DNA from: a virus
Taxonomy: Duplodnaviria > Heunggongvirae > Uroviricota > Caudoviricetes
DNA length: 28,449 bases
Direction: 5' to 3' (one strand)
Virus record (IMG/VR): IMGVR_UViG_3300030379_000406
This document shows, one piece after another, positions 1,659-27,597 of this stretch (position 1 is the first letter of the stretch; each line of letters opens with the position of its first letter). Below the pieces are notes generated by a model. That model saw nothing but the letters and a program-made list of their open reading frames with translations, was not told where the DNA came from and ran no database searches. The position numbers and the translations under genes are program-made.

Positions 1659-4130
1659 TTAAGAATCAGCCTGACTCGGGATCAGTTTTTGCCAGATAAC
1701 TGAAACGTATTTTGCCTGGTAACGGGCGTCATCAAGTGCATTATGGCGCTCACCTTCGAATGGAATAGCCGTTCTGGCATCGAAGTCTATGGCTTTCCCC
1801 AGCTCAACGATTGTGCGTACATCGCGATCGTTGTAGTAACGCCACGGGCAGGGGATCCCCTGCCGTTCGTATGAACGGCGCAAAATCGTGTTGTCGAAGT
1901 TGGCTCCATTTCCCCAAACCTGAACAAAAAATTCACCGGAGTTTTCGTCGATAAATTCTCGCAATTGTAACAGTGCATCATCTAACGGGATTTCATCGGT
2001 CATAATGGCAGATTGCGCTTCGCGTGATTGCTTAAGCCACCATTTAATGGTGTCCCGATCAATGACTCCGCCAGCAGTTTCCAGATCGATAGTCTTACTA
2101 AATTCCGGTCCCATATCTCCGGTTTGCGGATCGAAAAATATTGCACCTATTGAGATGATCGGGGCATCAGGATTTTTTCCCATGGTTTCAAGGTCGATCA
2201 TTAGATGGTCACACGTCCTGCTGGTGGATGTGATTTCGTGATGACCGTTCACCTTAATTGGGTGATCTGCCGTCTCGCCAGTTTCATTATCGCTATTGTG
2301 ATGCTGATTGCCGCCAGTGTTCTCCTTGTGTGGATGTTCAGCGCCTTCCATTTCCTCCGGATCATCTTCCTGAACTTCAACCTGATACTCTTCATCGAAT
2401 GTTTCTTGGTATGTTGCGTCGCCCATCACCGCGCCACAATCAGGGCAGTTGCCGCCGCCGGTCTGACCGCAGGCGGTGCAGACTTTTTCCACTTCCTGTT
2501 GCGCTACTGGTTCAGGCTGTTTCGTTTCTGGCTCGTTTTGTAACGCATTTGGACTGTTTTGTTCCGCTTTTTGGTAGTTCCGTTCCGATTCATGCTGGTT
2601 CTGGTTCACAGAATCGCGGGTCTGGAGCCCCTTAACCCATTTCGGATCATTCGGGTCACTAATCCCTTCAACAAATTCACCACGTGATGCAGCAAGCAAC
2701 TTATCGGCGTCAGGCTGGCTGATATTGGCTGCCTGCATAATTTTGTTTACTTCGTCAGCGGTAACTTTTATCGGCTCTGGTTGTTCTGAATCTTCAGCGG
2801 TATCTACATTTTGCGGTAAGCCCGTGTATGTGCCATTTTTTCGGGCAAAATATTCTTCTTTTGTGATTTCAGTGGCGCCAGCAGCCAGTGCCTTATCCAG
2901 ACCAGAGAGTTTGTTTGCGCGACCGTATTTTTCTCCGTCCTTATCTGCGAAGAGGAAATAGAACGGCCCCTCACGCTCTACAGATGGTTCAGCTTCCGGC
3001 GCGGTTTCATTTTTTGGGATATCAGATACCTCAGTTTCCACTGCATCAGTTTGTGTTTCTGATGACTGGAGAACATCAACAGTGCCCAGGTCTGTTTCTT
3101 CATTCTCAAACACGCCCTTTGTCGTCAGGTATTCGCAGATATATTTGTTCAGTGCTACGGGATCTTTGTGAATGTCGATCGGACGCTCACGGACAAGGCC
3201 AAAAATAGTTTGGCGGTCGTAGCGAAGGGCATCAGGCTGTTTGCGCATTGATGCCGAGATACGCTTCCAGTCTTCGCGGTCGTTGTCGATAACTTCTTTT
3301 TTTGCCCAGCGATGGATGCTGCCGTCAATGTTTCCGGCATCCACATCACTAGGCCAGAGAGCGTAGGCCAGTTCGTCATCCAGTGTTTTCCATGTCTGCT
3401 TGTATTCGCGATGAATGGCAGCAATGACCGGGCTGATTTTTCCTGTTGAATTTTCAGTGTACTGTTGATTGGCTCTGGCGCGGGCGAGATCAACAACAGA
3501 CGTGTATTTTCCGGTTTCCTTGCGTTCACCTTCGCGACGTTTTTTCCAGATGCGCATCTCTGCCTGAATTTCGGGCCATTTAGCACCAGGAATACATTTA
3601 TGCTTAACCCACCCAATGGCGTGCAACTTAAGCTCCGGATACATGGCGTTAACTTCTGGCATTTTCATCAACGCTTCAACGATATGTCCGTCGAATGTTG
3701 CCATGTCTTCCTGCAACAATTCCTGTGCGCTAATAACCATATCAACGGTGATGTTTTCACATGTGTCGAACTTAACCATGACAGCGTTCTGTACTTCAGG
3801 GGCCAGCTTGTCAAAAGTGACGTTCATCGGATCGGATTCAGTCTCAACCGGGACAAAAGAAGCAGACTCCTCATCCCAGCGGTTTTCCTGCATATATTCA
3901 GCATCCCATGAATCGAGGGCAGGGCGGGGTATGCCAGGTTTATCCTCGCAGACAATAAATTTATAAGCGCAGTCCTGAGCAGCCGGATAATGTTCCAGGA
4001 ATTGCCAGTGAAATTTTGCTCGAGCACGGCGTTCGTCGCCAGCTTCAATGGCTGTGGCTACAGCCACAGCGCCTTCTTCCCTTGTTGCCAGTTCGTCAGG
4101 AATAGCGGCGCAAATAAAGACTTTACTCAT
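1659..4130 (-). CDS. RecE-like (exodeoxyribonuclease VIII family-like) protein with C-terminal DEDDh 3'-5' exonuclease domain
   Basis: Long ORF (835 aa from first ATG; likely start MSKVFICAA at 4130, preceded by GAGG). C-terminal ~200 aa carry DnaQ/RNase T-type motifs: Exo I MIDLETMG, Exo II GANFDNTIL, Exo III HNALDDARYQAKY. An internal CxxC-N6-CxxC zinc-ribbon (CTACGQTGGGNCPDCG) and acidic linkers are present. The mid-region motif DKLLAASRGEFVEGISDPNDPKWVKG matches my recollection of Rac RecE (unverified). Confidence 0.75.
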   Translation of the reverse strand: MSKVFICAAIPDELATREEGAVAVATAIEAGDERRARAKFHWQFLEHYPAAQDCAYKFIVCEDKPGIPRPALDSWDAEYMQENRWDEESASFVPVETESDPMNVTFDKLAPEVQNAVMVKFDTCENITVDMVISAQELLQEDMATFDGHIVEALMKMPEVNAMYPELKLHAIGWVKHKCIPGAKWPEIQAEMRIWKKRREGERKETGKYTSVVDLARARANQQYTENSTGKISPVIAAIHREYKQTWKTLDDELAYALWPSDVDAGNIDGSIHRWAKKEVIDNDREDWKRISASMRKQPDALRYDRQTIFGLVRERPIDIHKDPVALNKYICEYLTTKGVFENEETDLGTVDVLQSSETQTDAVETEVSDIPKNETAPEAEPSVEREGPFYFLFADKDGEKYGRANKLSGLDKALAAGATEITKEEYFARKNGTYTGLPQNVDTAEDSEQPEPIKVTADEVNKIMQAANISQPDADKLLAASRGEFVEGISDPNDPKWVKGLQTRDSVNQNQHESERNYQKAEQNSPNALQNEPETKQPEPVAQQEVEKVCTACGQTGGGNCPDCGAVMGDATYQETFDEEYQVEVQEDDPEEMEGAEHPHKENTGGNQHHNSDNETGETADHPIKVNGHHEITSTSRTCDHLMIDLETMGKNPDAPIISIGAIFFDPQTGDMGPEFSKTIDLETAGGVIDRDTIKWWLKQSREAQSAIMTDEIPLDDALLQLREFIDENSGEFFVQVWGNGANFDNTILRRSYERQGIPCPWRYYNDRDVRTIVELGKAIDFDARTAIPFEGERHNALDDARYQAKYVSVIWQKLIPSQADS

Positions 4131-5722: not shown

Positions 5723-5891
5723 TTTTTGTTCAGCTAAATATAACATCAGTTTTGAAGAGCGGGATGAACTATTAATGGACTATGGTGAGTTACGCGGTGG
5801 AAGTGCTGCTGATGTCGAATCCTAGCGTGATGACTATGAAGCGGGAAAAACTCCGGTCGAAGCATATTGTGATGAGTGGGGCGATGAATGA
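5700..5891 (+). pseudogene. Small ORF with single in-frame TAG (41 codons + TAG + 21 codons)
   Basis: MRKNKVADFCSAKYNISFEERDELLMDYGELRGGSAADVES-stop-RDDYEAGKTPVEAYCDEWGDE; amber codon at 5823-5825; terminal TGA overlaps the ATG of the next ORF (ATGA). Confidence 0.3.
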
Positions 5892-6175
5892 GCGAGATTA
5901 ATTATCAGGAAGGGCATGAAACGGCGGGGCAAGCAAAACCAGTGGCATGGCGATATCGCTACGTGAAAAAAGGCGTTACGGACTTTCAGGGGAAGTAGTG
6001 GTCTGGTGACTGGAAATATGTACCGAAAAAAGAGGATTGTAACGACAGGCCGAACTATCAAATTCAGGCCTTATTCACTGCCTCACCAGTCCCAGTTACA
6101 TCAGAAGAACTGGTTAAAGCTGTGCACTTTTATGAACAACTAAAACGCGAAAATCCACCAACATCCGGCAACTAG
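5888..6175 (+). pseudogene. Small ORF with single in-frame TAG (36 codons + TAG + 58 codons)
   Basis: MSEINYQEGHETAGQAKPVAWRYRYVKKGVTDFQGK-stop-WSGDWKYVPKKEDCNDRPNYQIQALFTASPVPVTSEELVKAVHFYEQLKRENPPTSGN; amber codon at 5996-5998. Confidence 0.3.
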
Positions 6176-6609: not shown

Positions 6610-6879
6610 ATACAGCGAACTCCATTGGTTTAGTTGGATATTTACTGTGCTGGACAAAAACGGTTTGCGGGGAAATCTTAGTTAAGTAGAATGACTGCGG
6701 GTGCTTGAGGCTATCTGCCTCGGGCATGGACACCAACGGCAGATAGAGAAAAGCCCCAGTTAACATTACGCGTCCTGCAAGACGCTTAACATTAATCTGA
6801 GGCCAATTTCATGCTAGACACATGTAGGTTAGCCTCTTACGTGCCGAAAGGCACGGAGAAGCAGGCTATTGTTAACACC

Positions 6880-13576: not shown

Positions 13577-13876
13577 AAAAATTCCTTAATACTGATAACT
13601 TGGCGCACTATACACACGTTCCTGAAGAAAGCTATAGTTTTTTGATGGGGTTGAAGATGGCTGGATGTCTAAAATAAACATTGCTTCATATGTTCAACTA
13701 TGCGTTAATGATTGCGTCGGTTTGAAGAACAGACGATATACGAAGTAGTTTACTAAAGCAGTTCTCATTTCAGGTGTTATTCACTTATTCCTTCTTTGAG
13801 TCTCTCCAATTAAGTACGAAGTCGTTTCTGTTATGCAAACCATTTATGCCGAAAGGCTCAAGTTAAGGAATGTAGA

Positions 13877-14092
13877 ATGTCAAATAAAATGACTGGTTTA
13901 GTAAAATGGTTTAACGCTGATAAAGGTTTCGGCTTTATTTCTCCTGTTGATGGTAGTAAAGATGTGTTTGTGCATTTTTCTGCGATTCAGAATGATAATT
14001 ATCGAACCTTATTTGAAGGTCAAAAGGTTACCTTCTCTATAGAGAGTGGTGCTAAAGGTCCTGCAGCAGCAAATGTCATCATTACTGATTAA
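13877..14092 (+). CDS. cspB: Cold-shock protein CspB
   Basis: 71 aa ([71 protein letters not shown]); long 5' UTR typical of csp genes. Confidence 0.95.
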
Positions 14093-14374
14093 AATTCATC
14101 GCTCGTCTGTATACGATAACGAAGAAGGCTGATGCCTGAGTAGAGATACGGACAGAGTAGTGAATATTGGATCTCTTTAATAAAAAGTAAGGAGGTCCAA
14201 TACATGAAACAATGGCTAGCATATTTGGCAAAATCTTAATCAGGAAAAGTATGCTAACCATTGTGGTGAAGTGCAGGTTTGCTGCATGAATAGTTTTACA
14301 GCAGAAGCTAACTGCTGGCATGGCAAAACAAAGTGCGTAAGTGGATGACTCCCACAAAAAGCACCACAATCTCA

Positions 14375-16401: not shown

Positions 16402-16762
16402 GGTAATATTAAATCGGAACATTTACATCGCGGAATGTAAAATTTAAATAAAAAGGACTCTTCCATGAGCCAAAATTCCTGAAATCTTAAGGGTAAGATA
16501 AAAGGTCTTAATCAGAATGACACGCTTTATTAATAAATAAAGCTATTCTTTCATTGCTGTGTTTTTCTTTACAAAAGTAATCCTTGCTATGGGTGGTTAA
16601 TCATGCGTTAATGGTGTTCTGGTTTGTTACAAATTTATCTGAAGCAGTCATTGTTATAATTTTATTATTTGTACCTCTTGAGATTTCCTTGTTGGTTTTT
16701 CTCTCTGATATTTTTTTCGGACCATTCTGCCCAAGGGCTAATTTCTTCAAAAGGTAATAATT

Positions 16763-16975
16763 ATGTCTAACAAAATGACTGGTTTAGTGAAATGGTTTAA
16801 CCCTGAAAAAGGTTTTGGTTTCATCACGCCGAAAGATGGCAGCAAAGATGTGTTTGTCCATTTCTCAGCAATTCAGAGCAACGATTTCAAAACATTAACT
16901 GAGAATCAGGAAGTTGAATTTGGTATTGAGAACGGACCTAAAGGTCCTGCCGCTGTTCATGTAGTGGCGCTTTGA
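16763..16975 (+). CDS. cspI: Cold-shock protein CspI
   Basis: 70 aa ([70 protein letters not shown]). Confidence 0.95.
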
Positions 16976-17645
16976 GGTAGACAATATTACAAACCATATT
17001 CACTTTAGATGCCCGTGTTGTCATGGTTCCCAGTATAGAACATCATCTTTTGATGTTTCTGACATGAATCCTTTCGGGGCAAAATGTATCTTTTGTAAAT
17101 CAATGATGATTACATTTGATAATATTTCACAATACTTAAATGCCAGCCGTCTGTCGTTGGATTTAAAAAAGTGAAAATGAAGGCTCCTTCGGGAGCTTTT
17201 TTGCTTGGTGTCTATTCGATGGATACTCACATACTACGGTAACATCATGAAAAAAATCATAGTTTTTTTTAACTCTGAACCAGCAGTGGTAGTGCCAGCG
17301 ATGACTGGAGTTAACACCATCATGCGTGAATATCCAAATGGCGAAAAAACACACCTTACTGTAATGGCCGCAGGGTTTCCATCTCTGACCGGAGATCATA
17401 AAGTCATTTATGTAGCCGCGGATCGACATGTTACTTCAGAAGAAATTCTGGAAGCAGCAATAAGGCTCTTGAGTTGATTTGATGCTATTGCATTGATAAT
17501 TCAGGAAAATTCTCTTTGTCTGTTTGTGTAAAATTTAGACTATCGTATGTTGATTATTGCGATGTTTCATCTTATCTTTTACACGTTTGCACCATATAAT
17601 CGACTTACTGTGTAACTGGAAAGTCATAACAGACTAAAAGAGGAA

Positions 17646-19063: not shown

Positions 19064-19198
19064 ATGGAAGTCAACAAAAAGCAGCTGGCTGACATTTTCG
19101 GTGCGAGTATCCGTACCATTCAGAACTGGCAGGAACAGGGAATGCCCGTTCTGCGAGGCGGTGGCAAGGGTAATGAGGTGCTTTATGACTCTGCGTGA
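19064..19198 (+). pseudogene. nohQ: Terminase small subunit Nu1, N-terminal 44 codons only
   Basis: [44 protein letters not shown] then TGA at the deletion junction; matches the lambda Nu1 N-terminus by recall. Confidence 0.85.
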
Positions 19199-20871
19199 GT
19201 ATCCGTGAGAACGACGACGGCACGTATGCCATCACTGCCGTGCAGCATGTACCGGAGAAAGAGGCCATCGTGGATAACGGGGCGCACTTTGACGGCGACC
19301 AGAGCGGCACGGTGAATGGTGTCACGCCGCCAGCGGTGCAGCACCTGACTGCCGAAGTCACCGCAGACAGCGGGGAGTATCAGGTGCTGGCACGCTGGGA
19401 TACGCCGAAGGTGGTGAAGGGCGTGAGCTTTATGCTTCGCCTGACCGTGGTAGCGGATGACGGCAGTGAGCGGCTGGTCAGCACGGCCCGGACGACGGAA
19501 ACCACATACCGCTTCACGCAACTGGCGCTGGGGCGTTACATGCTGACGGTCCGGGCGGTAAATGCGTGGGGGCTGCAGGGCGATCCGGCATCGGTATCGT
19601 TCCGGATTGCCGCACCGGCAGCGCCGTCTCGGATTGAGCTGACACCGGGCTATTTTCAGATAACCGCCACGCCACATCTTGCGGTTTATGACCCGACGGT
19701 ACAGTTTGAGTTCTGGTTCTCGGAAAAACGGATTGCGGATATCAGGCAGGTTGAAACCACAGCCCGCTATCTTGGCACGGCGCTGTACTGGATAGCTGCC
19801 AGTATCAATATCAGGCCGGGCCATGATTATTATTTTTACGTTCGCAGTGTGAACACCGTTGGCAAATCGGCATTCGTGGAGGCTGTTGGTCGGGCGAGCG
19901 ATGATGCGGAAGGTTACCTGGATTTTTTCAAAGGCCAGATAACCGAATCCCATCTTGGCAAGGAGCTGCTGGAAAAAGTCGAGCTGACGGAGGATAACGC
20001 CAGCAAACTGGAGGAGTTTTCGAAAGAGTGGAAGGACGCCAGTGATAAGTGGAATGCCATGTGGGGCGTCAAAATTGAGCAGACCAAAGACGGCAAACAT
20101 TATGTCGCGGGTATTGGCCTCAGCATGGAGGACACGGAGGAAGGCAAACTGAGCCAGTTCCTGGTTGCCGCTAACCGTATCGCGTTTATTGATCCGTCTA
20201 ATGGCAACACAAGACCAATGTTTGTTGGTCAGGGCGATCAGATATTCATGAACGACGTGTTCCTGAAACGCCTGACGGCTCCGACCATTACCAGCGGCGG
20301 TAATCCTCCGGCATTTTCCCTGACACCGGATGGGCGGCTGACGGCGAAAAATGCCGATATCAGCGGTAACGTGAATGCGAACTCCGGGACGCTCAACAAC
20401 GTCACGATTAACGAGAACTGTCGGGTTCTGGGAAAACTGTCCGCGAACCAGATTGAAGGCGATCTCGTTAAAACAGTGGGCAAAGCTTTCCCCCGGGACT
20501 CCCGTGCACCGGAACGGTGGCCATCAGGGACCATTACCGTCAGGGTTTATGACGATCAGCCGTTTGACCGGCAGATTGTTATTCCTGCGGTGGCATTCAG
20601 CGGCGCTAAACATGAGAGAGAGCATACTGATATTTACTCCTCATGCCGTCTGATAGTGCGGAAAAACGGTGCTGAAATTTATAACCGTACCGCGCTGGAT
20701 AATACGCTGATTTACAGTGGCGTTATTGATATGCCTGCCGGTCACGGTCACATGACGCTGGAGTTTTCGGTGTCAGCATGGCTGGTAAATGACTGGTATC
20801 CCACAGCAAGTATCAGCGATTTGCTGGTTGTGGTGATGAAGAAAGCCACCGCAGGCATCAGTATCAGCTGA
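19195..20871 (+). pseudogene. J: Tail tip protein J, C-terminal ~558 aa fragment
   Basis: Translation ([33 protein letters not shown]...) is co-linear with the C-terminal half of lambda J as I recall it; the N-terminal half is absent; GTG at 19195 is the first possible start and lies in a different frame from nu1'. Confidence 0.85.
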
Positions 20872-21596: not shown

Positions 21597-24500
21597 GTGA
21601 ATATGGCAGTAAAGATTTCAGGTGTACTGAAAGACGGCACAGGAAAACCGGTACAGAACTGCACAATCCAGCTGAAAGCAAAACGTAACAGCACCACGGT
21701 GGTGGTGAACACGCTGGCCTCAGAAAATCCGGATGAAGCCGGGCGTTACAGCATGGACGTTGAGTACGGGCAGTACAGCGTTATTCTGTTGGTGGAGGGA
21801 TTCCCGCCGTCACATGCCGGGACCATCACCGTGTATGAAGATTCCCGACCCGGTACGCTGAATGATTTTCTCGGTGCCATGACGGAGGATGATGCCCGTC
21901 CTGAGGCACTGCGCCGTTTTGAACTGATGGTGGAAGAGGTGGCGCGTAACGCGTCCGCGGTGGCACAGAACACGGCAGCCGCGAAGAAGTCAGCCAGCGA
22001 TGCCAGCACATCAGCCCGTGAGGCGGCAACCCATGCGACTGATGCTGCAGGCTCAGCACGCGCAGCCAGCACGTCAGCCGGACAGGCCGCGTCGTCGGCT
22101 CAGTCAGCATCTTCCAGCGCAGGAACGGCATCAACAAAGGCCAGTGAAGCATCGAAAAGTGCTGCTGCTGCAGAGTCCTCAAAAAGCGCGGCAGCTACCA
22201 GTGCCGCTGCGGCGAAAACGTCAGAAACGAATGCGGCAGCGTCACAACAATCAGCAGCCACTTCTGCATCCGCCGCGACCACGAAGGCGTCAGAAGCAGC
22301 CACCTCAGCCCGGGATGCGGCGGCCTCAAAAGAGGCAGCGAAATCATCAGAAACGAACGCATCATCAAGCGCCAGTAGTGCCGCTTCCTCGGCAACGGCG
22401 GCAGGCAATTCCGCGAAGGCGGCAAAGACGTCTGAGACAAACGCCAGGTCTTCTGAAACGGCAGCGGGACAGAGCGCCTCGGCTGCGGCAGGCTCAAAAA
22501 CAGCGGCTGCGTCGTCTGCCAGTGCCGCGTCAACAAGTGCCGGGCAGGCCTCAGCCAGTGCCACCGCCGCCGGAAAATCGGCAGAAAGTGCCGCATCGTC
22601 TGCTTCAACAGCCACAACGAAGGCTGGCGAAGCCACTGAACAGGCCAGCGCAGCAGCGAGGTCTGCTTCCGCAGCGAAGACATCCGAGACGAACGCGAAA
22701 GCGTCGGAAACCAGCGCAGAATCCTCAAAAACGGCTGCCGCATCGTCAGCCAGTTCGGCGGCGTCATCGGCATCATCTGCGTCTGCTTCAAAAGATGAGG
22801 CGACCAGACAAGCGTCAGCAGCGAAGGGCAGCGCCACGACGGCATCCACGAAGGCGACAGAGGCTGCTGGCAGTGCGACGGCGGCAGCACAGAGCAAAAG
22901 TACGGCAGAATCCGCGGCAACGCGCGCCGAGACAGCGGCAAAACGGGCAGAGGATATTGCATCCGCCGTGGCGCTTGAGGATGCAAGTACGACGAAAAAG
23001 GGGATAGTACAGCTCAGCAGTGCGACCAACAGTACGTCTGAAACGCTGGCGGCAACGCCAAAGGCAGTAAAATCAGCCTATGACAATGCAGAGAAACGTC
23101 TGCAGAAAGACCAGAACGGCGCTGATATACCCGATAAGGGACGCTTCCTGAACAACATTAACGCGGTCAGTAAAACAGACTTTGCTGATAAGCGTGGTAT
23201 GCGTTATGTGCGGGTTAACGCTCCTGCAGGTGCAACATCTGGAAAATATTACCCTGTTGTTGTTATGCGTTCTGCTGGCTCAGTAAGCGAACTGGCATCA
23301 AGGGTCATTATCACCACGGCAACGCGAACCGCAGGCGATCCGATGAATAACTGCGAGTTTAACGGATTTGTTATGCCTGGTGGCTGGACTGACAGGGGGC
23401 GTTATGCTTATGGAATGTTCTGGCAATATCAAAACAATGAACGAGCCATCCACTCAATAATGATGAGTAATAAGGGCGATGATTTGCGCTCTGTGTTCTA
23501 TGTTGATGGCGCTGCTTTCCCTGTTTTTGCGTTTATCGAAGATGGCCTGTCAATATCCGCACCTGGTGCTGATCTCGTTGTTAATGATACGACCTATAAG
23601 TTTGGGGCAACAAATCCGGCGACTGAATGTATCGCGGCGGACGTTATCCTTGATTTTAAGAGTGGGCGTGGTTTTTATGAGTCTCATTCGTTAATCGTTA
23701 ACGATAACTTGTCGTGCAAAAAACTTTTTGCCACAGACGAAATTGTAGCGCGTGGTGGTAATCAGATTCGAATGATAGGTGGGGAGTATGGGGCATTATG
23801 GCGTAATGATGGCGCTAAAACTTACCTGCTGCTTACCAATCAAGGTGATGTTTATGGTGGCTGGAATACATTAAGACCGTTTGCTATTGATAACGCAACC
23901 GGCGAACTGGTTATTGGAACCAAACTGTCCGCAAGTCTGAACGGTAATGCATTAACAGCAACAAAGCTGCAAACGCCAAGACTGGTTTCTGGTGTTGAGT
24001 TTGATGGTTCCAAAGATATTACTTTAACCGCCGCGCATGTGGCTGCTTTTGCCAGAAGGGCAACGGATACATATGCCGATGCGGATGGTGGCGTTCCCTG
24101 GAATGCCGAATCAGGCGCTTACAATGTCACCCGCTCTGGCGACAGCTATATTCTGGTTAACTTCTATACCGGAGTCGGAAGTTGCCGGACCCTGCAGATG
24201 AAGGCGCATTACAGAAATGGTGGTCTGTTCTACCGTTCTTCAAGAGATGGCTATGGTTTTGAGGAAGACTGGGCAGAAGTTTATACCTCGAAAAATCTTC
24301 CACCAGAAAGCTACCCAGTCGGCGCACCAATCCCGTGGCCATCAGATACCGTTCCGTCTGGTTATGCCCTGATGCAGGGGCAGACTTTTGACAAATCTGC
24401 CTACCCGAAACTTGCTGCCGCTTATCCGTCAGGCGTGATCCCTGATTTGCGTGGCTGGACGATTAAGGGCAAGCCCGCCAGTGGTCGTGCCGTATTGTCT

Positions 24501-25001
24501 CAGGAACAGGATGGCATTAAATCGCATACCCACAGCGCCAGCGCATCCAGTACGGATTTGGGGACGAAAACCACATCGTCGTTTGATTACGGCACTAAAT
24601 CCACGAATAACACTGGTGCGCATACCCATAGTTTAAGTGGCAGCACGAATGCAGCTGGTAATCACAGCCATAGAGATGGCCGTCGATTTAACCCCAGTGT
24701 TCTTAAAGATACTTATCAATATGGTTATACAAGCTCAGGTCAAAATACCTGGGGTGTACAAGGCTCAGTAGGTATGTCTACGGGGTGGTTAGCGAATACC
24801 AGTACAGATGGTAATCATAGCCATTCACTGTCCGGCACAGCAGCATCTGCAGGTGCACACGCGCATACTGTCGGTATTGGTGCTCATACGCACTCCGTTG
24901 CGATTGGTTCACATGGACACACCATCACCGTTAACGCTGCTGGTAACGCGGAAAACACCGTCAAAAACATCGCATTTAACTATATTGTGAGGCTTGCATA
25001 A
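21597..25001 (+). CDS. stf: Side tail fiber protein Stf
   Basis: 1134 aa; N-terminus [26 protein letters not shown] (lambda Stf-like; true start may be the Met at 21603); long Ala/Ser/Thr-rich repeat tract; C-terminal region with repeated HxH motifs ([45 protein letters not shown]). Confidence 0.9.
21950..22960 (+). repeat. Low-complexity GC-rich coding repeat (Ala/Ser/Thr-rich units) inside stf
   Basis: Reiterated SASAA/TSETNA-type peptide units; the same tract produces three long spurious ORFs in other frames and on the minus strand. Confidence 0.6.
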
Positions 25002-25576
25002 TGGCATTCAGAATGAGTGAACAACCACGGACCATAAAAATTTATAATCTGCTGGCCGGAACTAATGAATTTATTGGTGAAGGTGACGCATATATTCCGC
25101 CTCATACAGGTCTGCCAGCAAACAGTACCGATATTGCACCACCAGATATTCCTGCTGGCTTTGTGGCTGTTTTCAACAGTGATAAGGCATCGTGGCATCT
25201 CGATGAAGACCATCGGGGTAAAACGGTTTATGACGTAGCGTCAGGGGACGCGTTATTTATTTCTGAACTCGGTCCGTTACCGGAAAATGTTACCTGGTTA
25301 TCGCCGGAAGGGGAGTTTCAGAAGTGGAACGGCACAGCCTGGGTGAAAGATGCAGAAGCAGAAAAACTGTTCCGGATCCGAGAGGCGGAAGAAACAAAAA
25401 ACAGCCTGATGCAGGTAGCCAGTGAGCATATTGCGCCACTTCAGGATGCTGTAGATCTGGAAATCGCAACGGAGGAAGAAACCTCATTGCTGGAAGCCTG
25501 GAAAAAGTATCGGGTGTTGCTGAACCGTGTTGATACGTCAACTGCACAGGATATTGAATGGCCAGCACTGCCGTAG
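25001..25576 (+). CDS. tfa: Tail fiber assembly protein Tfa
   Basis: 191 aa ([51 protein letters not shown]...); start overlaps the stf stop (TAATG). Confidence 0.9.
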
Positions 25577-25673
25577 GGTAAAACATATAAATTCTATAAT
25601 TAGATGTATCTTTCCATTTACGGCAAGGAAGGGGGCTTGGAAGACGTAAAGCATCTCACACCGAGATTATTTT

Positions 25674-26264
25674 TTATATGTCAGGTGTCTGAAGTTTTGC
25701 TTTGGCTCTTAAAATGGTTTGCCGCGAGGTTTTGAATTCCCGGGCAATGGCACTTATACTTACACCTGACTTAATTCGTTCGAATACCACCTGTTTCTGT
25801 TCTTCATTTAACACAGGTGGTCGACCAAAACGTTTCCCTGCGCCGCGGGCTCTTACTATCCCGGAATGAGTGCGTTCAAGTAAAAGGTCTCGTTCAAATT
25901 CAGCGACTGCTGAAATTACGTGCATCATCATTTTTCCTGTTGGACTGGTCAGGTCAATGCCCCCCAATGCTAAGCAATGCACTCTGATACCTGTTTCGGT
26001 CAGTTGTTCCACTGTTTTCCTGATATCCATTGCATTACAACCAAGGCGATCCAGTTTTGTCACAATCAATTGATCACCACATTTCAGGCGAGCAAGCAAC
26101 CGGTTAAAACCAGGACGCTCACTGGTTGCTGCTGAGCCGCTAATGTGTTCTTCGATTATTTGCTGAGGTTTGATTTTAAAACCTGCACTTTCGATTTCCC
26201 GGCGTTGATTTTCGGTGGTCTGATCCAGCGTTGATATCCGACAGTAAGCAAAAATTCGAGACAT
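25674..26264 (-). CDS. pin: Pin/Gin/Hin-family serine DNA invertase
   Basis: 196 aa; N-terminal catalytic region [15 protein letters not shown] (active-site Ser in the RxST context) and C-terminal HTH ([20 protein letters not shown]). Confidence 0.9.
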
Positions 26265-26580
26265 AGTGAGACTCTATACGAAATTGGTGTTCATATCATA
26301 ATGCATCTCAGAAAATAATTTTGATTATTTTTGTGCATATTTGTATGTACACGTTCGAAAATAAACGAATGCGTATGCAACCCCGTAACTTTGGTGAGAC
26401 CCAAAATCGATTTTGTGAAAAATGGCTTTAACTCGGTTTGTTTTTCGAGTTCCGGGCGGACTCAAGGAAGAAGAATAGTGTTGCGTGTTATTTTAACCAG
26501 ATTTCAAGTTGTTTGGTCGTGGAAAAGTGGAGCAAAATGTTGTTAAAGTGGAAAAATGATAAAAAAGTAAGTTTATTATA

Positions 26581-26814
26581 TTACATTTTACCATTTAAAT
26601 TTTGGTTGTCTTTAAGAACTGATATCGCTGTTTGTAATAATTCTTTGTTATCCAGCCATGATTTTTTCTTTATGTTTCCTTCAATGTAATCAAGCAATGT
26701 TCTGGTATTGATAGGTCTTCCCTGTTTTGCTACTTCCACTACAGCATCCCCTAGGATAATTCTTACTTCAGGAAGCTGCGCAGGGAACCACTTTAGGGTG
26801 TCTTTTGATTTCAT
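26581..26814 (-). CDS. ydfK: YdfK/YnaE-family cold-shock-induced prophage protein
   Basis: 77 aa from MKSKDTLKWFPAQLPEVRIILGDAVVEVAKQGRPINTRTLLDYIEGN...; symbol chosen because the adjacent host gene is ydfJ-like (Qin) rather than ttcA (Rac). Confidence 0.75.
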   Translation of the reverse strand: MKSKDTLKWFPAQLPEVRIILGDAVVEVAKQGRPINTRTLLDYIEGNIKKKSWLDNKELLQTAISVLKDNQNLNGKM

Positions 26815-27597
26815 GAAGATATTCCTTAAAATATTATTGATTTTCATTGCGATATTGTATGTCTGATTCAGGATATGTTGACTTATACATCGGTTTTGTC
26901 TGGGTTATTGGATATGCCAATCCCTAATTTTATTAGGGCATGACTAAAAATGCTGAATATGATAAGGAGAGAAGTGATTATCAGTATGCTGTTCATATAG
27001 CCTCGAATTAGTAATGTGTTATATATGATATAGTTGACAATTTTATCTTGGGTGTTCTTAAAGTTCGTAGATAAACATTGTCGTTTCAGGTATACAGGAA
27101 TGCTAACAGGTGGCGGCAAAAATCAGGCGGTTTATGGCGCAATCTGAAGTGGCAACTGCAAACTATCTTATGCAGAGACTCTACACGGATTGGGTTTAAA
27201 AGTATACATAGATAACAGTTTTTATCTGAAGAAGAAAAATATCAAGGTGATATAGCCTATATGCCTTTGATGTGGAGGAATGAATGTGATGGGAGTGATG
27301 TATCTGAATAGTTGAAAAACCGCAGACACACCTTATGCAAGAACGTGCTGCGGTTGGCTGGTAAATTTTTCGATAGTGCGAGTATTGAATGATTTCCAGC
27401 CGTTATTGATTTTACGCGTAAATCCATGAAAAAACTACTTATCTGTTGGGGAGTTTTTTGGGGCATATATGGGACAGAAATAGGCGCCAGATAGACACTG
27501 AGATCGAACTTAGGATGCTTTTAAAAAAATGCAACTATCTGAAAAAACCTAGAAAACGCCAAGGAAACCACAGGATGGGAAAAAACACCTGTGAATT

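What the first reader, a model, noticed from the sequence alone, without database searches (positions are those of the whole stretch)
25577..26264. Intact Pin invertase with no recognisable invertible segment
Pin looks full-length and catalytically competent, but only one stf-tfa set is present and tfa is followed immediately by pin. I could not find a pair of inverted 26-bp gix/hix-type crossover sites (core AAACC-NN-GGTTT) in the tfa-pin spacer or within stf. The TTTCCATTTACGGCAAGGAAGG sequence at about 25616-25640 is only weakly palindromic. Pin may act in trans on another prophage or be an orphan.
Basis: partly seen in the sequence, partly recalled or inferred. Interest (0 to 1): 0.45.

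Follow-up and report, generated by a model that had tools for sequence, protein, structure and literature searches.

The report
Orphan resolvase from a decayed transposon
The "Pin invertase" beside the tail-fibre genes of this cryptic Qin prophage is the leftover resolvase gene of a decayed Tn3-family transposon, so there was probably never an invertible segment next to it.

Summary
The window is the Qin cryptic lambdoid prophage of a non-K-12 E. coli. The gene at 25674-26264 (-) is pinQ, 98-99% identical to K-12 PinQ and PinR.

The observation mostly holds. The ORF is intact (196 aa), there is one stf and one tfa, and a 97-bp spacer separates tfa from pin. A weight-matrix scan found no gix/hix/cix/pix-type site anywhere in the 28.4 kb.

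The premise does not hold. PinQ is only 37-39% identical to true Din invertases, which are 75-82% identical to one another. It is 77-84% identical to the TnpR resolvases of a 3,815-bp Tn3-family transposon.

DNA homology to that transposon runs from about 80 bp upstream of pin, through decayed res subsites III and II and half of site I, to a remnant of the terminal inverted repeat (25631-25678) that overlaps the pin stop codon. No tnpA remains.

The prophage lineage also has Cys76 where transposon relatives keep the catalytic Arg (Tn3 R71). Purifying selection is relaxed: dN/dS is 0.39, against 0.02-0.065 between transposon copies.

So this is a recombinase with no target in cis. A 2025 paper reports that K-12 PinQ inverts the e14 P segment in trans, but direct catalysis has not been shown.

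The parts
21597..25001 (+). stf, the side tail-fibre gene (1134 aa). It is the only copy and contains no crossover site.
   Evidence: phage_tail_N, Gp34_trimer, Collar. One search shows a single copy. One search found no Din site.
25001..25576 (+). tfaQ, the tail-fibre assembly gene (191 aa) and the only copy. Homology to phage lambda tfa ends about 10 bp before its stop codon.
   Evidence: Caudo_TAP, E 3e-44.. In one search, lambda-type phages align only to query positions 364-367, which is window ~25563-25566.
25577..25630 (.). Phage-side spacer between tfa and the transposon end. It is shared only with pin-bearing lambdoid phages.
   Evidence: It is conserved in the divergent prophage lineage L012 (90.7%). 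No terminator was predicted.
25631..25678 (-). Remnant of the Tn3-family terminal inverted repeat (IRR). The sequence is GGGGGCTTGGAAGACGTAAAGCATCTCACACCGAGATTATTTTTTATA. It overlaps the pin stop codon and has about 3 bp deleted near the tip.
   Evidence: The transposon IRs are L006 2822-2874 and 6586-6638, 96% complementary. By blastn, Tn 3097-3808 matches window 26344-25635, and IRL 8-51 matches 25635-25678.
25674..26264 (-). pinQ, a tnpR-derived small serine recombinase of 196 aa, with Resolvase and HTH_7 domains.
   Evidence: It is 83% identical to the TnpR of the E. coli plasmid transposon and 37-39% to Din invertases.
26037..26039 (-). Codon 76, TGT = Cys. Transposon relatives have CGT = Arg at this position, which is equivalent to Tn3/gamma-delta R71.
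   Evidence: (112 of 120 homologues have Arg and 5 clusters, all prophage-type, have Cys). The effect of R71 mutations is described in PMC2794168.
26265..26344 (-). Decayed res remnant plus promoter. The site III remnant is at 26275-26293, the -10 TATGAT (TATAAT in the transposons) at 26295-26300, and the site II remnant at 26306-26337.
   Evidence: Alignments. The blastn homology limit is 26344. Pair scores are 7.4 and 6.4 bits, against 27-31 bits for real transposon sites.
26352..26361 (-). Right half-site of res site I, the crossover site (TTTTCGAACG in the pin sense). The left half is not homologous, so the crossover site is incomplete.
   Evidence: pair score 5.9 bits, against 27.5-30.7 bits for real site I.
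26581..26847 (-). ydfK (a cold-shock protein paralogue of ynaE), the next gene upstream of pin. It is not part of the transposon remnant.
   Evidence: Annotation of near-identical genomes.

Best explanation
pinQ is not a Din-type (Gin/Cin/Hin/PinE) invertase. It is the tnpR resolvase gene of a fossil Tn3-family transposon.

The transposon was a roughly 3.8-kb, Tn5403-like minimal element organised as IRL-tnpA<-res->tnpR-IRR. It once inserted just downstream of tfa in an ancestral lambdoid phage.

What survives, in order, is:
- the right terminal IR, now degenerate;
- tnpR;
- its promoter;
- res subsites III and II, both decayed;
- the right half of crossover site I.

tnpA, IRL and the left half of site I are gone. 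A resolvase never needs an adjacent invertible segment, so the absence of one is expected (shown).

In cis the gene has no usable substrate: no Din sites and no intact res (shown).

The protein kept Ser11 and most active-site residues. The prophage lineage, however, fixed R76C at one of the six residues most critical for Tn3 resolvase catalysis, and it evolves under relaxed but non-zero purifying selection (shown). I therefore infer that it is catalytically weakened but retained for some DNA-binding or trans function. That function could be autoregulation at the res remnant, or the reported stimulation of e14 P-segment inversion.
For: 1. Protein identity. PinQ is 77-84% identical to the TnpR group and 37-39% to PinE, Gin and Cin, which are 75-82% identical to each other.

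2. Context of relatives. Every Arg-type relative examined, from E. coli plasmids, Hafnia and Shewanella, lies about 160 bp from a divergently transcribed 994-aa transposase. That transposase carries the Pfam DDE_Tnp_Tn3 and DUF4158 domains in all of them. The E. coli plasmid copy scores 1193 bits against NCBIfam transpos_Tn3.

3. The element is a real transposon. It is 3,815 bp long with roughly 50-bp terminal IRs that are 96% complementary. Perfect 5-bp target duplications flank 3 of 6 copies, and one Shewanella genome holds three copies.

4. DNA homology with the window. It is 82.3% over 712 bp. It starts about 80 bp upstream of the pin ATG and ends 8 bp from the IR tip. It then stops where independent transposon copies also diverge from each other.

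5. The res region. Subsites conserved across three transposon variants (half-site TGTCCGAAA) align with degenerate counterparts upstream of pin, in the same order and with the same lengths of 19, 32 and 26 bp.

6. A second prophage lineage. L012 (P0009-type, 84% protein identity) has the same tfa-97 bp-pin layout, the same junctions and the same Cys76, so the capture was a single old event.

7. Selection. dN/dS is 0.39 within the prophage lineage and 0.02-0.065 between transposon copies. PinQ deviates at 13 of 132 positions that are at least 97% conserved in 106 Arg-type proteins, whose own mean is 0.8 deviations.

8. Catalysis. R71A and R71K abolish recombination by Tn3 resolvase and cut the cleavage rate about 1000-fold (PMC2794168).
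Against: - Kirigo et al. 2025 report that over-produced K-12 PinQ raises e14 P-segment inversion from about 30% to 88%. That argues for real recombinase activity despite Cys76.
- The ORF is intact in about half of complete E. coli genomes and in plaque-forming lambdoid phages, and dN/dS is below 1. It is therefore not a plain pseudogene.
- No full-length transposon at this phage position and no empty site were found, so the insertion event is inferred rather than observed.
- Identification of the transposon as Tn5403-like rests on size, gene content and an annotation habit, not on an alignment to the Tn5403 reference.
- The res subsite boundaries are my inference from three aligned variants. 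They are not footprints.
Confidence: 0.8

Rival explanations
1. PinQ is a functional DNA invertase whose real substrate lies elsewhere in the genome. It would act in trans on Din-type sites, such as pixL/pixR of the e14 P segment, and would be kept by the prophage or host as an anti-phage switch. This is compatible with the transposon origin, and it rivals only the 'catalytically weakened' part of my explanation.
For: - PMC12529663: PinQ over-production gives 88% inverted P segment against 26-30% in controls. The effect is lost when stfP, stfE or e14 is deleted, and a pinQ deletion lowers inversion.
- The prophage lineage shares derived changes at positions where activating mutations of resolvases lie. 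E61K aligns with Tn3 E56K, and residues 109, 113 and 115 align with gamma-delta 103, 107 and 109.
- dN/dS is below 1.
Against: - There is no in-vitro or catalytic-mutant evidence in that paper.
- PinE was present in all of the positive experiments, and the pinE deletion strain is locked. That result is ambiguous, because from my own knowledge the Fis enhancer of Din systems lies inside the 5' end of the invertase gene, so the deletion may have removed it.
- Cys76 replaces a residue whose mutation abolishes Tn3 resolvase recombination.
- The PinQ recognition helix (RQTILR) is that of the transposon TnpRs. With the res half-site matrix, pix half-sites score at most 2.9 bits, against 11-17 bits for real half-sites.
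- The K-12-type P segment plus pinE occurs at >=80% coverage in 170 of 5426 genomes, while the pinQ module occurs in 2751.
- A genome 99.95% identical to the window over 23.8 kb has no e14 at icd.
Confidence: 0.3
2. A degenerate Din-type tail-fibre switch. The ancestor would have had a P1-like layout, cin-cixL-[S'U' / U Sv]-cixR-Sc, and then lost one S'U' cassette and both crossover sites, leaving the invertase convergent with tfa.
For: - In P1-like phage D6 the 3' end of cin abuts cixL, so a recombinase whose 3' end faces the segment is a known layout.
- Deleting S'U' from that layout would give the gene order seen here.
Against: - PinQ is only 38% identical to Cin.
- The DNA after the stop codon is homologous to a Tn3-family terminal IR, not to cix. 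The best Din score there is -16 bits.
- The upstream DNA is homologous to res.
- No Din half-site in stf scores above chance.
Confidence: 0.03
3. A non-catalytic DNA-binding relic. PinQ would survive only as an autorepressor, or as a regulator that binds the res II/III remnant or similar TGTCCGAAA-like sites, or else as a neutral passenger hitch-hiking with the widely inherited Qin and Rac prophages.
For: - Cys76.
- Relaxed constraint.
- The promoter and the site III/II remnants are retained and are 97.5% conserved between two prophage lineages, while the CDS is 89.7% conserved.
- TnpR proteins are known autorepressors at res. This is my own knowledge of Tn3 and gamma-delta.
- The module is at least 99% identical in 2573 E. 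coli records, which fits recent vertical spread.
Against: - The site remnants score like background with the res matrix.
- Published phenotypes of the pinQ deletion and of over-expression imply some cellular effect.
- The whole ORF remains intact, although DNA binding would need only the C-terminal domain.
Confidence: 0.3

Closest known systems
TnpR resolvases of Tn3-family transposons, specifically a 3,815-bp minimal tnpA-res-tnpR element that is probably Tn5403-like; the mechanistic paradigm is Tn3/gamma-delta resolvase
   Same: - 77-84% protein identity.
- DNA homology covers the coding region, the promoter and res side, and the terminal IR.
- Same length (196 aa), same Resolvase + HTH_7 architecture and same recognition helix.
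- The half-site TGTCCGAAA is of the gamma-delta/Tn3 TGTCYNNTA type.
   Different: - No tnpA and no second IR.
- Crossover site I is half missing, and sites II and III are decayed.
- Catalytic Arg is replaced by Cys76, and there are 13 deviations at family-conserved positions.
- It sits in a lambdoid prophage next to tail-fibre genes rather than on a mobile transposon.
K-12 PinQ (Qin) and PinR (Rac), as described by Kirigo et al., NAR 2025 (PMC12529663)
   Same: - It is the same gene in the same Qin position: stf-tfa-pinQ-ydfK-ynfT-ydfJ.
- 98% identical to PinQ and 99% to PinR.
- That paper also notes that the recombinase does not invert the DNA next to it.
   Different: - This copy has H115 where the K-12 alleles have Q.
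- The Qin prophage here keeps a full-length stf, lom and a J fragment that K-12 Qin lacks.
- The paper treats PinQ as an invertase named for its 38% identity to PinE. It does not mention the transposon ancestry or Cys76.
Din-family DNA invertase switches: Gin/G segment of Mu and D108, Cin/C segment of P1 and D6, Pin/P segment of e14, and Hin
   Same: - It is a small serine recombinase of similar size next to phage tail-fibre and tail-fibre-assembly genes.
- By phmmer, Gin is the best solved-structure match (109 bits, against 82 bits for gamma-delta resolvase).
   Different: - Only 37-39% identity.
- No 26-bp crossover sites.
- No alternative stf/tfa cassette.
- A different recognition helix.
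- The flanks are transposon-derived.
Trans-acting invertases such as Fin of Fels-2 acting on hix, and PinE acting on the Mu G segment (cited in PMC12529663)
   Same: A recombinase encoded in one prophage is reported to act on sites in another element.
   Different: Those enzymes are true Din-family members acting on cognate-type sites. PinQ belongs to a different clade.

Membership tests
Din-family DNA invertase switch (Gin/Cin/Hin/PinE) | The recombinase belongs to the tight Din clade, whose members are about 75-82% identical to one another. | tested here: not met
   37-39% identity to PinE, Gin(D108) and Cin(D6). The best phage hits outside its own clade are at most 39%.
Din-family DNA invertase switch (Gin/Cin/Hin/PinE) | Two inverted 26-bp crossover sites, each made of 12-bp half-sites around a 2-bp core. 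| tested here: not met
   The best full-site score in the window is 4.3 bits. True sites score 23-30 bits with their own family left out, and the shuffled maximum is 6.9 +/- 3.1.
Din-family DNA invertase switch (Gin/Cin/Hin/PinE) | Alternative tail-fibre C-termini and assembly genes in inverted orientation inside the segment. | tested here: not met
   tblastn finds one tfa and one stf C-terminus only.
Din-family DNA invertase switch (Gin/Cin/Hin/PinE) | A Fis-dependent recombinational enhancer in cis, usually inside the 5' end of the invertase gene. | not tested
   No reliable sequence model for Fis enhancer sites was available, and the question is moot given the other failures.
Tn3-family transposon resolution module (tnpR + res) | The recombinase is orthologous to tnpR genes that sit beside a Tn3-family DDE transposase. 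| tested here: met
   77-84% identity to proteins that lie about 160 bp from a divergent 994-aa transposase with DDE_Tnp_Tn3 and DUF4158 domains, in E. coli plasmids, Hafnia and Shewanella. The E. coli plasmid transposase scores 1193 bits against NCBIfam transpos_Tn3.
Tn3-family transposon resolution module (tnpR + res) | A Tn3-type terminal inverted repeat (GGGG tip) at the end of the element. | tested here: met
   One degenerate IR is present at 25631-25678. It is collinear with the tnpR homology and ends where independent transposon copies diverge from each other. The second IR is absent.
Tn3-family transposon resolution module (tnpR + res) | An intact res site with three dimer-binding subsites, including crossover site I, upstream of tnpR. 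| tested here: not met
   Only remnants survive. Site III scores 7.4 bits, site II 6.4 bits and site I 5.9 bits (right half only), against 27-31 bits for real sites. The shuffled maximum is 14.1 +/- 2.7.
Tn3-family transposon resolution module (tnpR + res) | A tnpA transposase gene and 5-bp target-site duplications, meaning a complete mobile element. | tested here: not met
   tblastn of the 994-aa TnpA against the window finds nothing (best E 2.9). Target duplications are seen only at intact copies elsewhere.
Catalytically competent small serine recombinase | Conservation of the six residues most critical in Tn3 resolvase: Y6, R8, S10, D36, R68 and R71. | tested here: not met
   Y7, R9, S11 and R73 are present. 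The D36 position is Glu, as in the whole TnpR family. The R71 position is Cys76, whereas 112 of 120 homologues have Arg. Mutant effects are in PMC2794168. Enzyme activity itself cannot be tested with these tools.

The most novel reading that the evidence does not exclude
The PinQ/PinR lineage may be an exapted Tn3-family resolvase rather than a dying one.

After capture by a lambdoid phage it lost its res accessory sites. On the lineage stem it acquired changes at positions where activating, accessory-site-independent mutations of resolvases and invertases map:
- E61K aligns with Tn3 E56K.
- A109T/P and T113M align with gamma-delta 103 and 107. H115, specific to this window's allele, sits at the position of gamma-delta 109 and Hin H107.
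- R76C came with these changes and may temper the activity.

Such a deregulated, low-activity enzyme could promote inversion at foreign simple crossover sites such as pix of e14. That would make it a resolvase turned trans-acting phase-variation or anti-phage factor, carried by half of all E. coli.
Probability: 0.2. Interest if true: 0.6.

Novelty: already known. Interest (0 to 1): 0.3.

Why it matters
pinQ and pinR are annotated as "DNA invertases" in thousands of E. coli genomes, and the name propagates further: annotation pipelines label transposon tnpR genes "pinR". A recent paper builds an anti-phage mechanism on PinQ being an invertase.

Three results change what should be expected of the protein:
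- the gene is a resolvase left behind by a Tn3-family transposon;
- its own res site is truncated;
- a key catalytic arginine has been replaced.

These results explain the missing invertible segment without invoking loss of a switch. They also point to the controls that the trans-inversion claim still needs: a catalytic mutant, a C76R revertant, and an enhancer-preserving pinE mutant. For the genome scan itself the finding is ordinary. It is a known gene in a known cryptic prophage.

Tried and rejected
- **Generic inverted repeats around stf-tfa-pin.** I found 191 pairs, the longest 28 nt at 71-79% complementarity, and none at meaningful positions. I rejected these as chance.
- **Din-site matrix scan of the whole window.** Nothing scored above background. 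The best half-sites (11912, and 24255 inside stf) are at the level expected by chance.
- **res-type half-site and pair scan (one search timed out).** There is no intact site. The best single half-site (25993, inside pin) is at chance level.
- **Remnants of tnpA in the window.** None were found.
- **An "empty site" joining the tfa spacer directly to the DNA upstream of the res remnant.** It was found in 0 of 5426 E. coli genomes, so the insertion cannot be shown by comparison.
- **The P1-like "deleted cassette" scenario.** I considered it because the 3' end of cin abuts cixL in phage D6. I rejected it on sequence grounds.
- **Assigning the window to a host genome to look for a trans target.** The closest genome I checked is 99.945% identical over 23.8 kb but differs upstream, so the true host is unknown. 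That relative lacks e14 at icd.
- **Naming the transposon.** RefSeq and PLSDB call it only "Tn3 family transposase". The Tn5403 assignment is a lead from the literature and has not been verified by alignment.
- **Detecting inversion of stf-tfa directly across E. coli genomes.** I rely on the absence of sites and on the negative BLAST survey reported in PMC12529663.

Full report
**What the window is**

Megablast places the region in the Qin cryptic lambdoid prophage of E. coli. The gene order is J fragment, lom, stf, tfaQ, pinQ, ydfK, ynfT, and then ydfJ, which the prophage truncates. A 3.2-kb stretch around pin is 100% identical to several non-K-12 isolates. One of these, NZ_CP080070, matches 23.8 kb of the window at 99.945%. 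The ORF at 25674-26264 (-) differs from K-12 PinR by one residue and from K-12 PinQ by three.

**Checking the observation**

- The ORF is complete at 196 aa and carries the Resolvase and HTH_7 domains.
- It converges on tfa (25001-25576), with a 97-bp spacer between the two genes.
- tblastn with the window's own Tfa and Stf C-terminus, and with the e14 and D108 assembly proteins, finds a single tfa and a single stf C-terminus.
- I extracted the real crossover sites from e14 (pixL/R, L001), D108 (gixL/R, L020) and the P1-like phage D6 (cixL/R, L021). I added hixL/R from memory and built a 12-bp half-site matrix.
- With the tested family left out, the matrix recovers each pair of true sites at 23-30 bits. 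The best full site anywhere in the window scores 4.3 bits, below the mean maximum of shuffled sequence (6.9 +/- 3.1). Nothing in the tfa-pin spacer exceeds -16 bits.
- The sequence TTTCCATTTACGGCAAGGAAGG sits at 25611-25632. It is only a weak hairpin, and no terminator is predicted.

**Where the premise fails**

The protein is not a Din invertase. PinE, Gin(D108) and Cin(D6) are 75-82% identical to each other, while PinQ is 37-39% identical to each of them.

A search of the large protein collection returned thousands of relatives. Those at 77-86% identity come from plasmids and from many Enterobacterales and Shewanella.

Look-ups of three such proteins gave the same context each time. The gene is divergently transcribed, about 160 bp away, from a 994-aa transposase with DDE_Tnp_Tn3 and DUF4158 domains. 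The E. coli plasmid copy of that transposase scores 1193 bits against NCBIfam transpos_Tn3.

The element has the following properties:
- It is 3,815 bp long.
- Its terminal inverted repeats are about 50 bp long, 96% complementary, and have GGGG tips.
- Perfect 5-bp target duplications flank 3 of 6 copies.
- Three copies occur in one Shewanella baltica genome.
- 186 plasmid records in PLSDB cover at least 80% of the element.

It is a minimal Tn3-family replicative transposon, organised as tnpA-res-tnpR. It is probably a relative of Tn5403, which is described as carrying only transposition genes. In Klebsiella plasmids the gene next to the Tn5403 transposase is annotated "pinR". I did not verify this naming by alignment.

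**The flanks of pin are transposon DNA too**

blastn of the transposon against the window gives one collinear match: Tn 3097-3808 equals window 26344-25635, at 82.3% over 712 bp. The left IR matches the same place.

Downstream of the pin stop codon, the window reads GGGGGCTTGGAAGACGTAAAGCATCTCACACCGAGATTAT. The transposon IR reads GGGGTCCGCTTGGAAAACGGAAAATATCCCACGCTAAGACTAT. The similarity stops exactly where two independent transposon copies, L006 and L009, diverge from each other.

Upstream, three transposon variants share conserved dimer sites built from the half-site TGTCCGAAA, which is the gamma-delta/Tn3 type:
- a 26-bp site nearest tnpA, which is site I, the crossover site;
- a 32-bp site II;
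- a TATAAT -10 box;
- a 19-bp site III next to tnpR.

The window keeps recognisable but mutated counterparts in the same order:
- site III at 26275-26293;
- TATGAT at 26295-26300;
- site II at 26306-26337;
- only the right half of site I at 26352-26361.

Their pair scores are 7.4, 6.4 and 5.9 bits, against 27-31 bits for the real sites. The left half of site I, tnpA and the other IR are absent. Plasmid locus L009 also lacks tnpA. Its homology to the transposon ends at the centre of site I, where a different left half-site begins. This shows that exchanges at this point do occur in this family.

**One old capture**

- A second prophage lineage (P0009-type, locus L012; 84% protein identity) has the same tfa-97 bp-pin layout, the same IR and res junctions, and the same Cys76.
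- Lambda itself shares tfa only up to about 10 bp before the stop codon.
- The spacer plus pin module is present in plaque-forming lambdoid phages, including Turner, 2H10, mEp460_ev081 and several PhiR isolates.
- No empty site was found in 5426 complete E. coli genomes.
- The 750-bp module occurs at >=80% coverage in 2751 of those genomes and is almost always at least 99% identical.

**State of the protein**

PinQ retains Y7, R9, S11, D72 and R73. The arginine of the LDRLGR motif, equivalent to Tn3/gamma-delta R71, is Cys76, from a single CGT to TGT change. Of 120 homologues, 112 have Arg. The five clusters with Cys are all PinQ/PinR-like (98-99% identical) or the P0009 prophage type. In Tn3 resolvase, R71A and R71K abolish recombination and lower the single-strand cleavage rate about 1000-fold. 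R71 is one of the six most critical residues (PMC2794168).

dN/dS values:

| Comparison | dN/dS |
|---|---|
| Between transposon copies | 0.02-0.065 |
| PinQ vs the E. coli transposon tnpR | 0.14 |
| Between the two prophage lineages | 0.39 |

At 132 positions that are at least 97% conserved in 106 Arg-type proteins, PinQ deviates 13 times and the P0009 type 17 times. The family mean is 0.8 and the maximum 5. Constraint is therefore clearly relaxed but not gone.

**How it most likely works**

- Shown: the gene is a tnpR relic with one IR and a truncated res. It has no cis substrate of either the Din or the res kind.
- Inferred: it cannot carry out its ancestral cointegrate-resolution reaction here, because the crossover site is incomplete. 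Its intrinsic catalysis is probably weakened by R76C.
- Open: what keeps the ORF intact.

The only experimental lead is Kirigo et al. 2025. They report that K-12 PinQ, which they treat as equivalent to the 99%-identical PinR, raises inversion of the 1797-bp e14 P segment when over-produced. They remark that it does not invert the DNA beside it, and they found no inversions in Qin or Rac by BLAST.

Several points leave direct catalysis unproven:
- The paper reports no catalytic mutant and no in-vitro reaction, and it does not mention the resolvase ancestry or Cys76.
- PinE was present in all of the positive experiments.
- The pinE deletion is locked, but that deletion probably also removes the cis enhancer, so the result is uninformative.
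- The PinQ recognition helix is that of the transposon TnpRs, and pix half-sites score poorly with the res matrix.
- K-12-type P segments are far rarer than pinQ: 170 genomes against 2751.
- The near-identical genome I checked has no e14 at icd.

**A speculative twist**

The substitutions shared by both prophage lineages include E61K. It aligns with E56 of Tn3/gamma-delta resolvase, and E56K is one of the six activating mutations of "NM resolvase". Changes at residues 109 and 113 fall at the start of helix E, where other activating mutations map. This window's allele also has H115 at the position of Hin H107. A deregulated, low-activity resolvase acting on foreign simple sites is conceivable. 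I give this about 20%.

**Comparison with known systems and verdict**

It works, or once worked, like a Tn3-family resolvase. By descent it belongs to that family's tnpR clade, but it fails the tests for a complete resolution module and for full catalytic conservation. It fails every tested defining feature of a Din invertase switch.

The gene and its lack of an adjacent invertible segment are already known (K-12 pinQ/pinR; PMC12529663). In the literature I could search, I did not find the transposon-fossil reading or the R-to-C change described. They are a reinterpretation of a known gene, not a new kind of system. Interest is low to moderate.

Noticed in passing
window 26082-26084, 25938-25940, 25926-25928, 25920-25922 (codons 61, 109, 113, 115 of pin): E61K, A109T and T113M are derived changes shared by both prophage lineages, at positions conserved in 106 transposon TnpRs. 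E61K aligns with the Tn3 activating mutation E56K. Residues 109, 113 and 115 align with gamma-delta 103, 107 and 109. H115 is specific to this allele (K-12 has Q) and sits at the position of Hin H107.
   Followed up: partly
L012 1-1652 vs window 24780-26430: Between the two prophage lineages the pin CDS is the most diverged segment (89.7% nt identity). The non-coding DNA upstream of it is 97.5% identical and tfa is 94-95%. This could reflect relaxed constraint or recombination within the CDS, and I did not resolve which.
   Followed up: partly
L009 ~5880-6000 (plasmid, ENA ERZ28602285): This tnpR homologue has no tnpA and lies next to a PemK/MazE toxin-antitoxin pair. Its homology to the transposon ends at the centre of res site I, where a different left half-site begins. 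It looks like a hybrid res made by resolvase-mediated exchange.
   Followed up: partly
window 25344-25542 (+): Rfam family IS009 (RF02111) matches at 226.7 bits over its full length, inside the 3' half of the tfaQ coding sequence.
   Followed up: no
window 13716-14108, 16618-17002 (+) and 6699-6870 (+): There are two cspA-type thermoregulator leaders, upstream of the cspB and cspI paralogues of Qin, and a sok antitoxin RNA of the hokD locus. All exceed the Rfam gathering scores.
   Followed up: no
window ~19195-20871 and upstream: In near-identical genomes, a C-terminal fragment of the J tail-tip gene is fused directly after a terminase small-subunit fragment. Almost the whole morphogenesis region has therefore been deleted, yet lom and a full-length 1134-aa stf survive. 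K-12 Qin keeps only a 320-aa stfQ.
   Followed up: partly
window 22000-23000 (inside stf): There is a long Ala/Ser/Thr-rich, low-complexity repeat region in Stf (motifs such as SETNA and AAKTSE). It produces long spurious ORFs in other frames on both strands.
   Followed up: no
window 26581-26847 (-): The ydfK ORF is 88 aa from the first ATG in this window. In near-identical genomes it is annotated as 234 bp (77 aa), so the start codon is uncertain.
   Followed up: no
NZ_CP080070.1 2739430-2741106 (L023 27431-29107): In a genome 99.945% identical to 23.8 kb of the window, icd lies directly next to iraM. The e14 prophage, and with it the reported trans target of PinQ, is therefore absent from its usual site.
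   Followed up: yes
literature / annotation (PMC13253593): Annotation pipelines label the tnpR of Tn5403-type transposons in Klebsiella plasmids as 'pinR (DNA invertase from lambdoid prophage Rac)'. The naming error therefore runs in both directions.
   Followed up: partly
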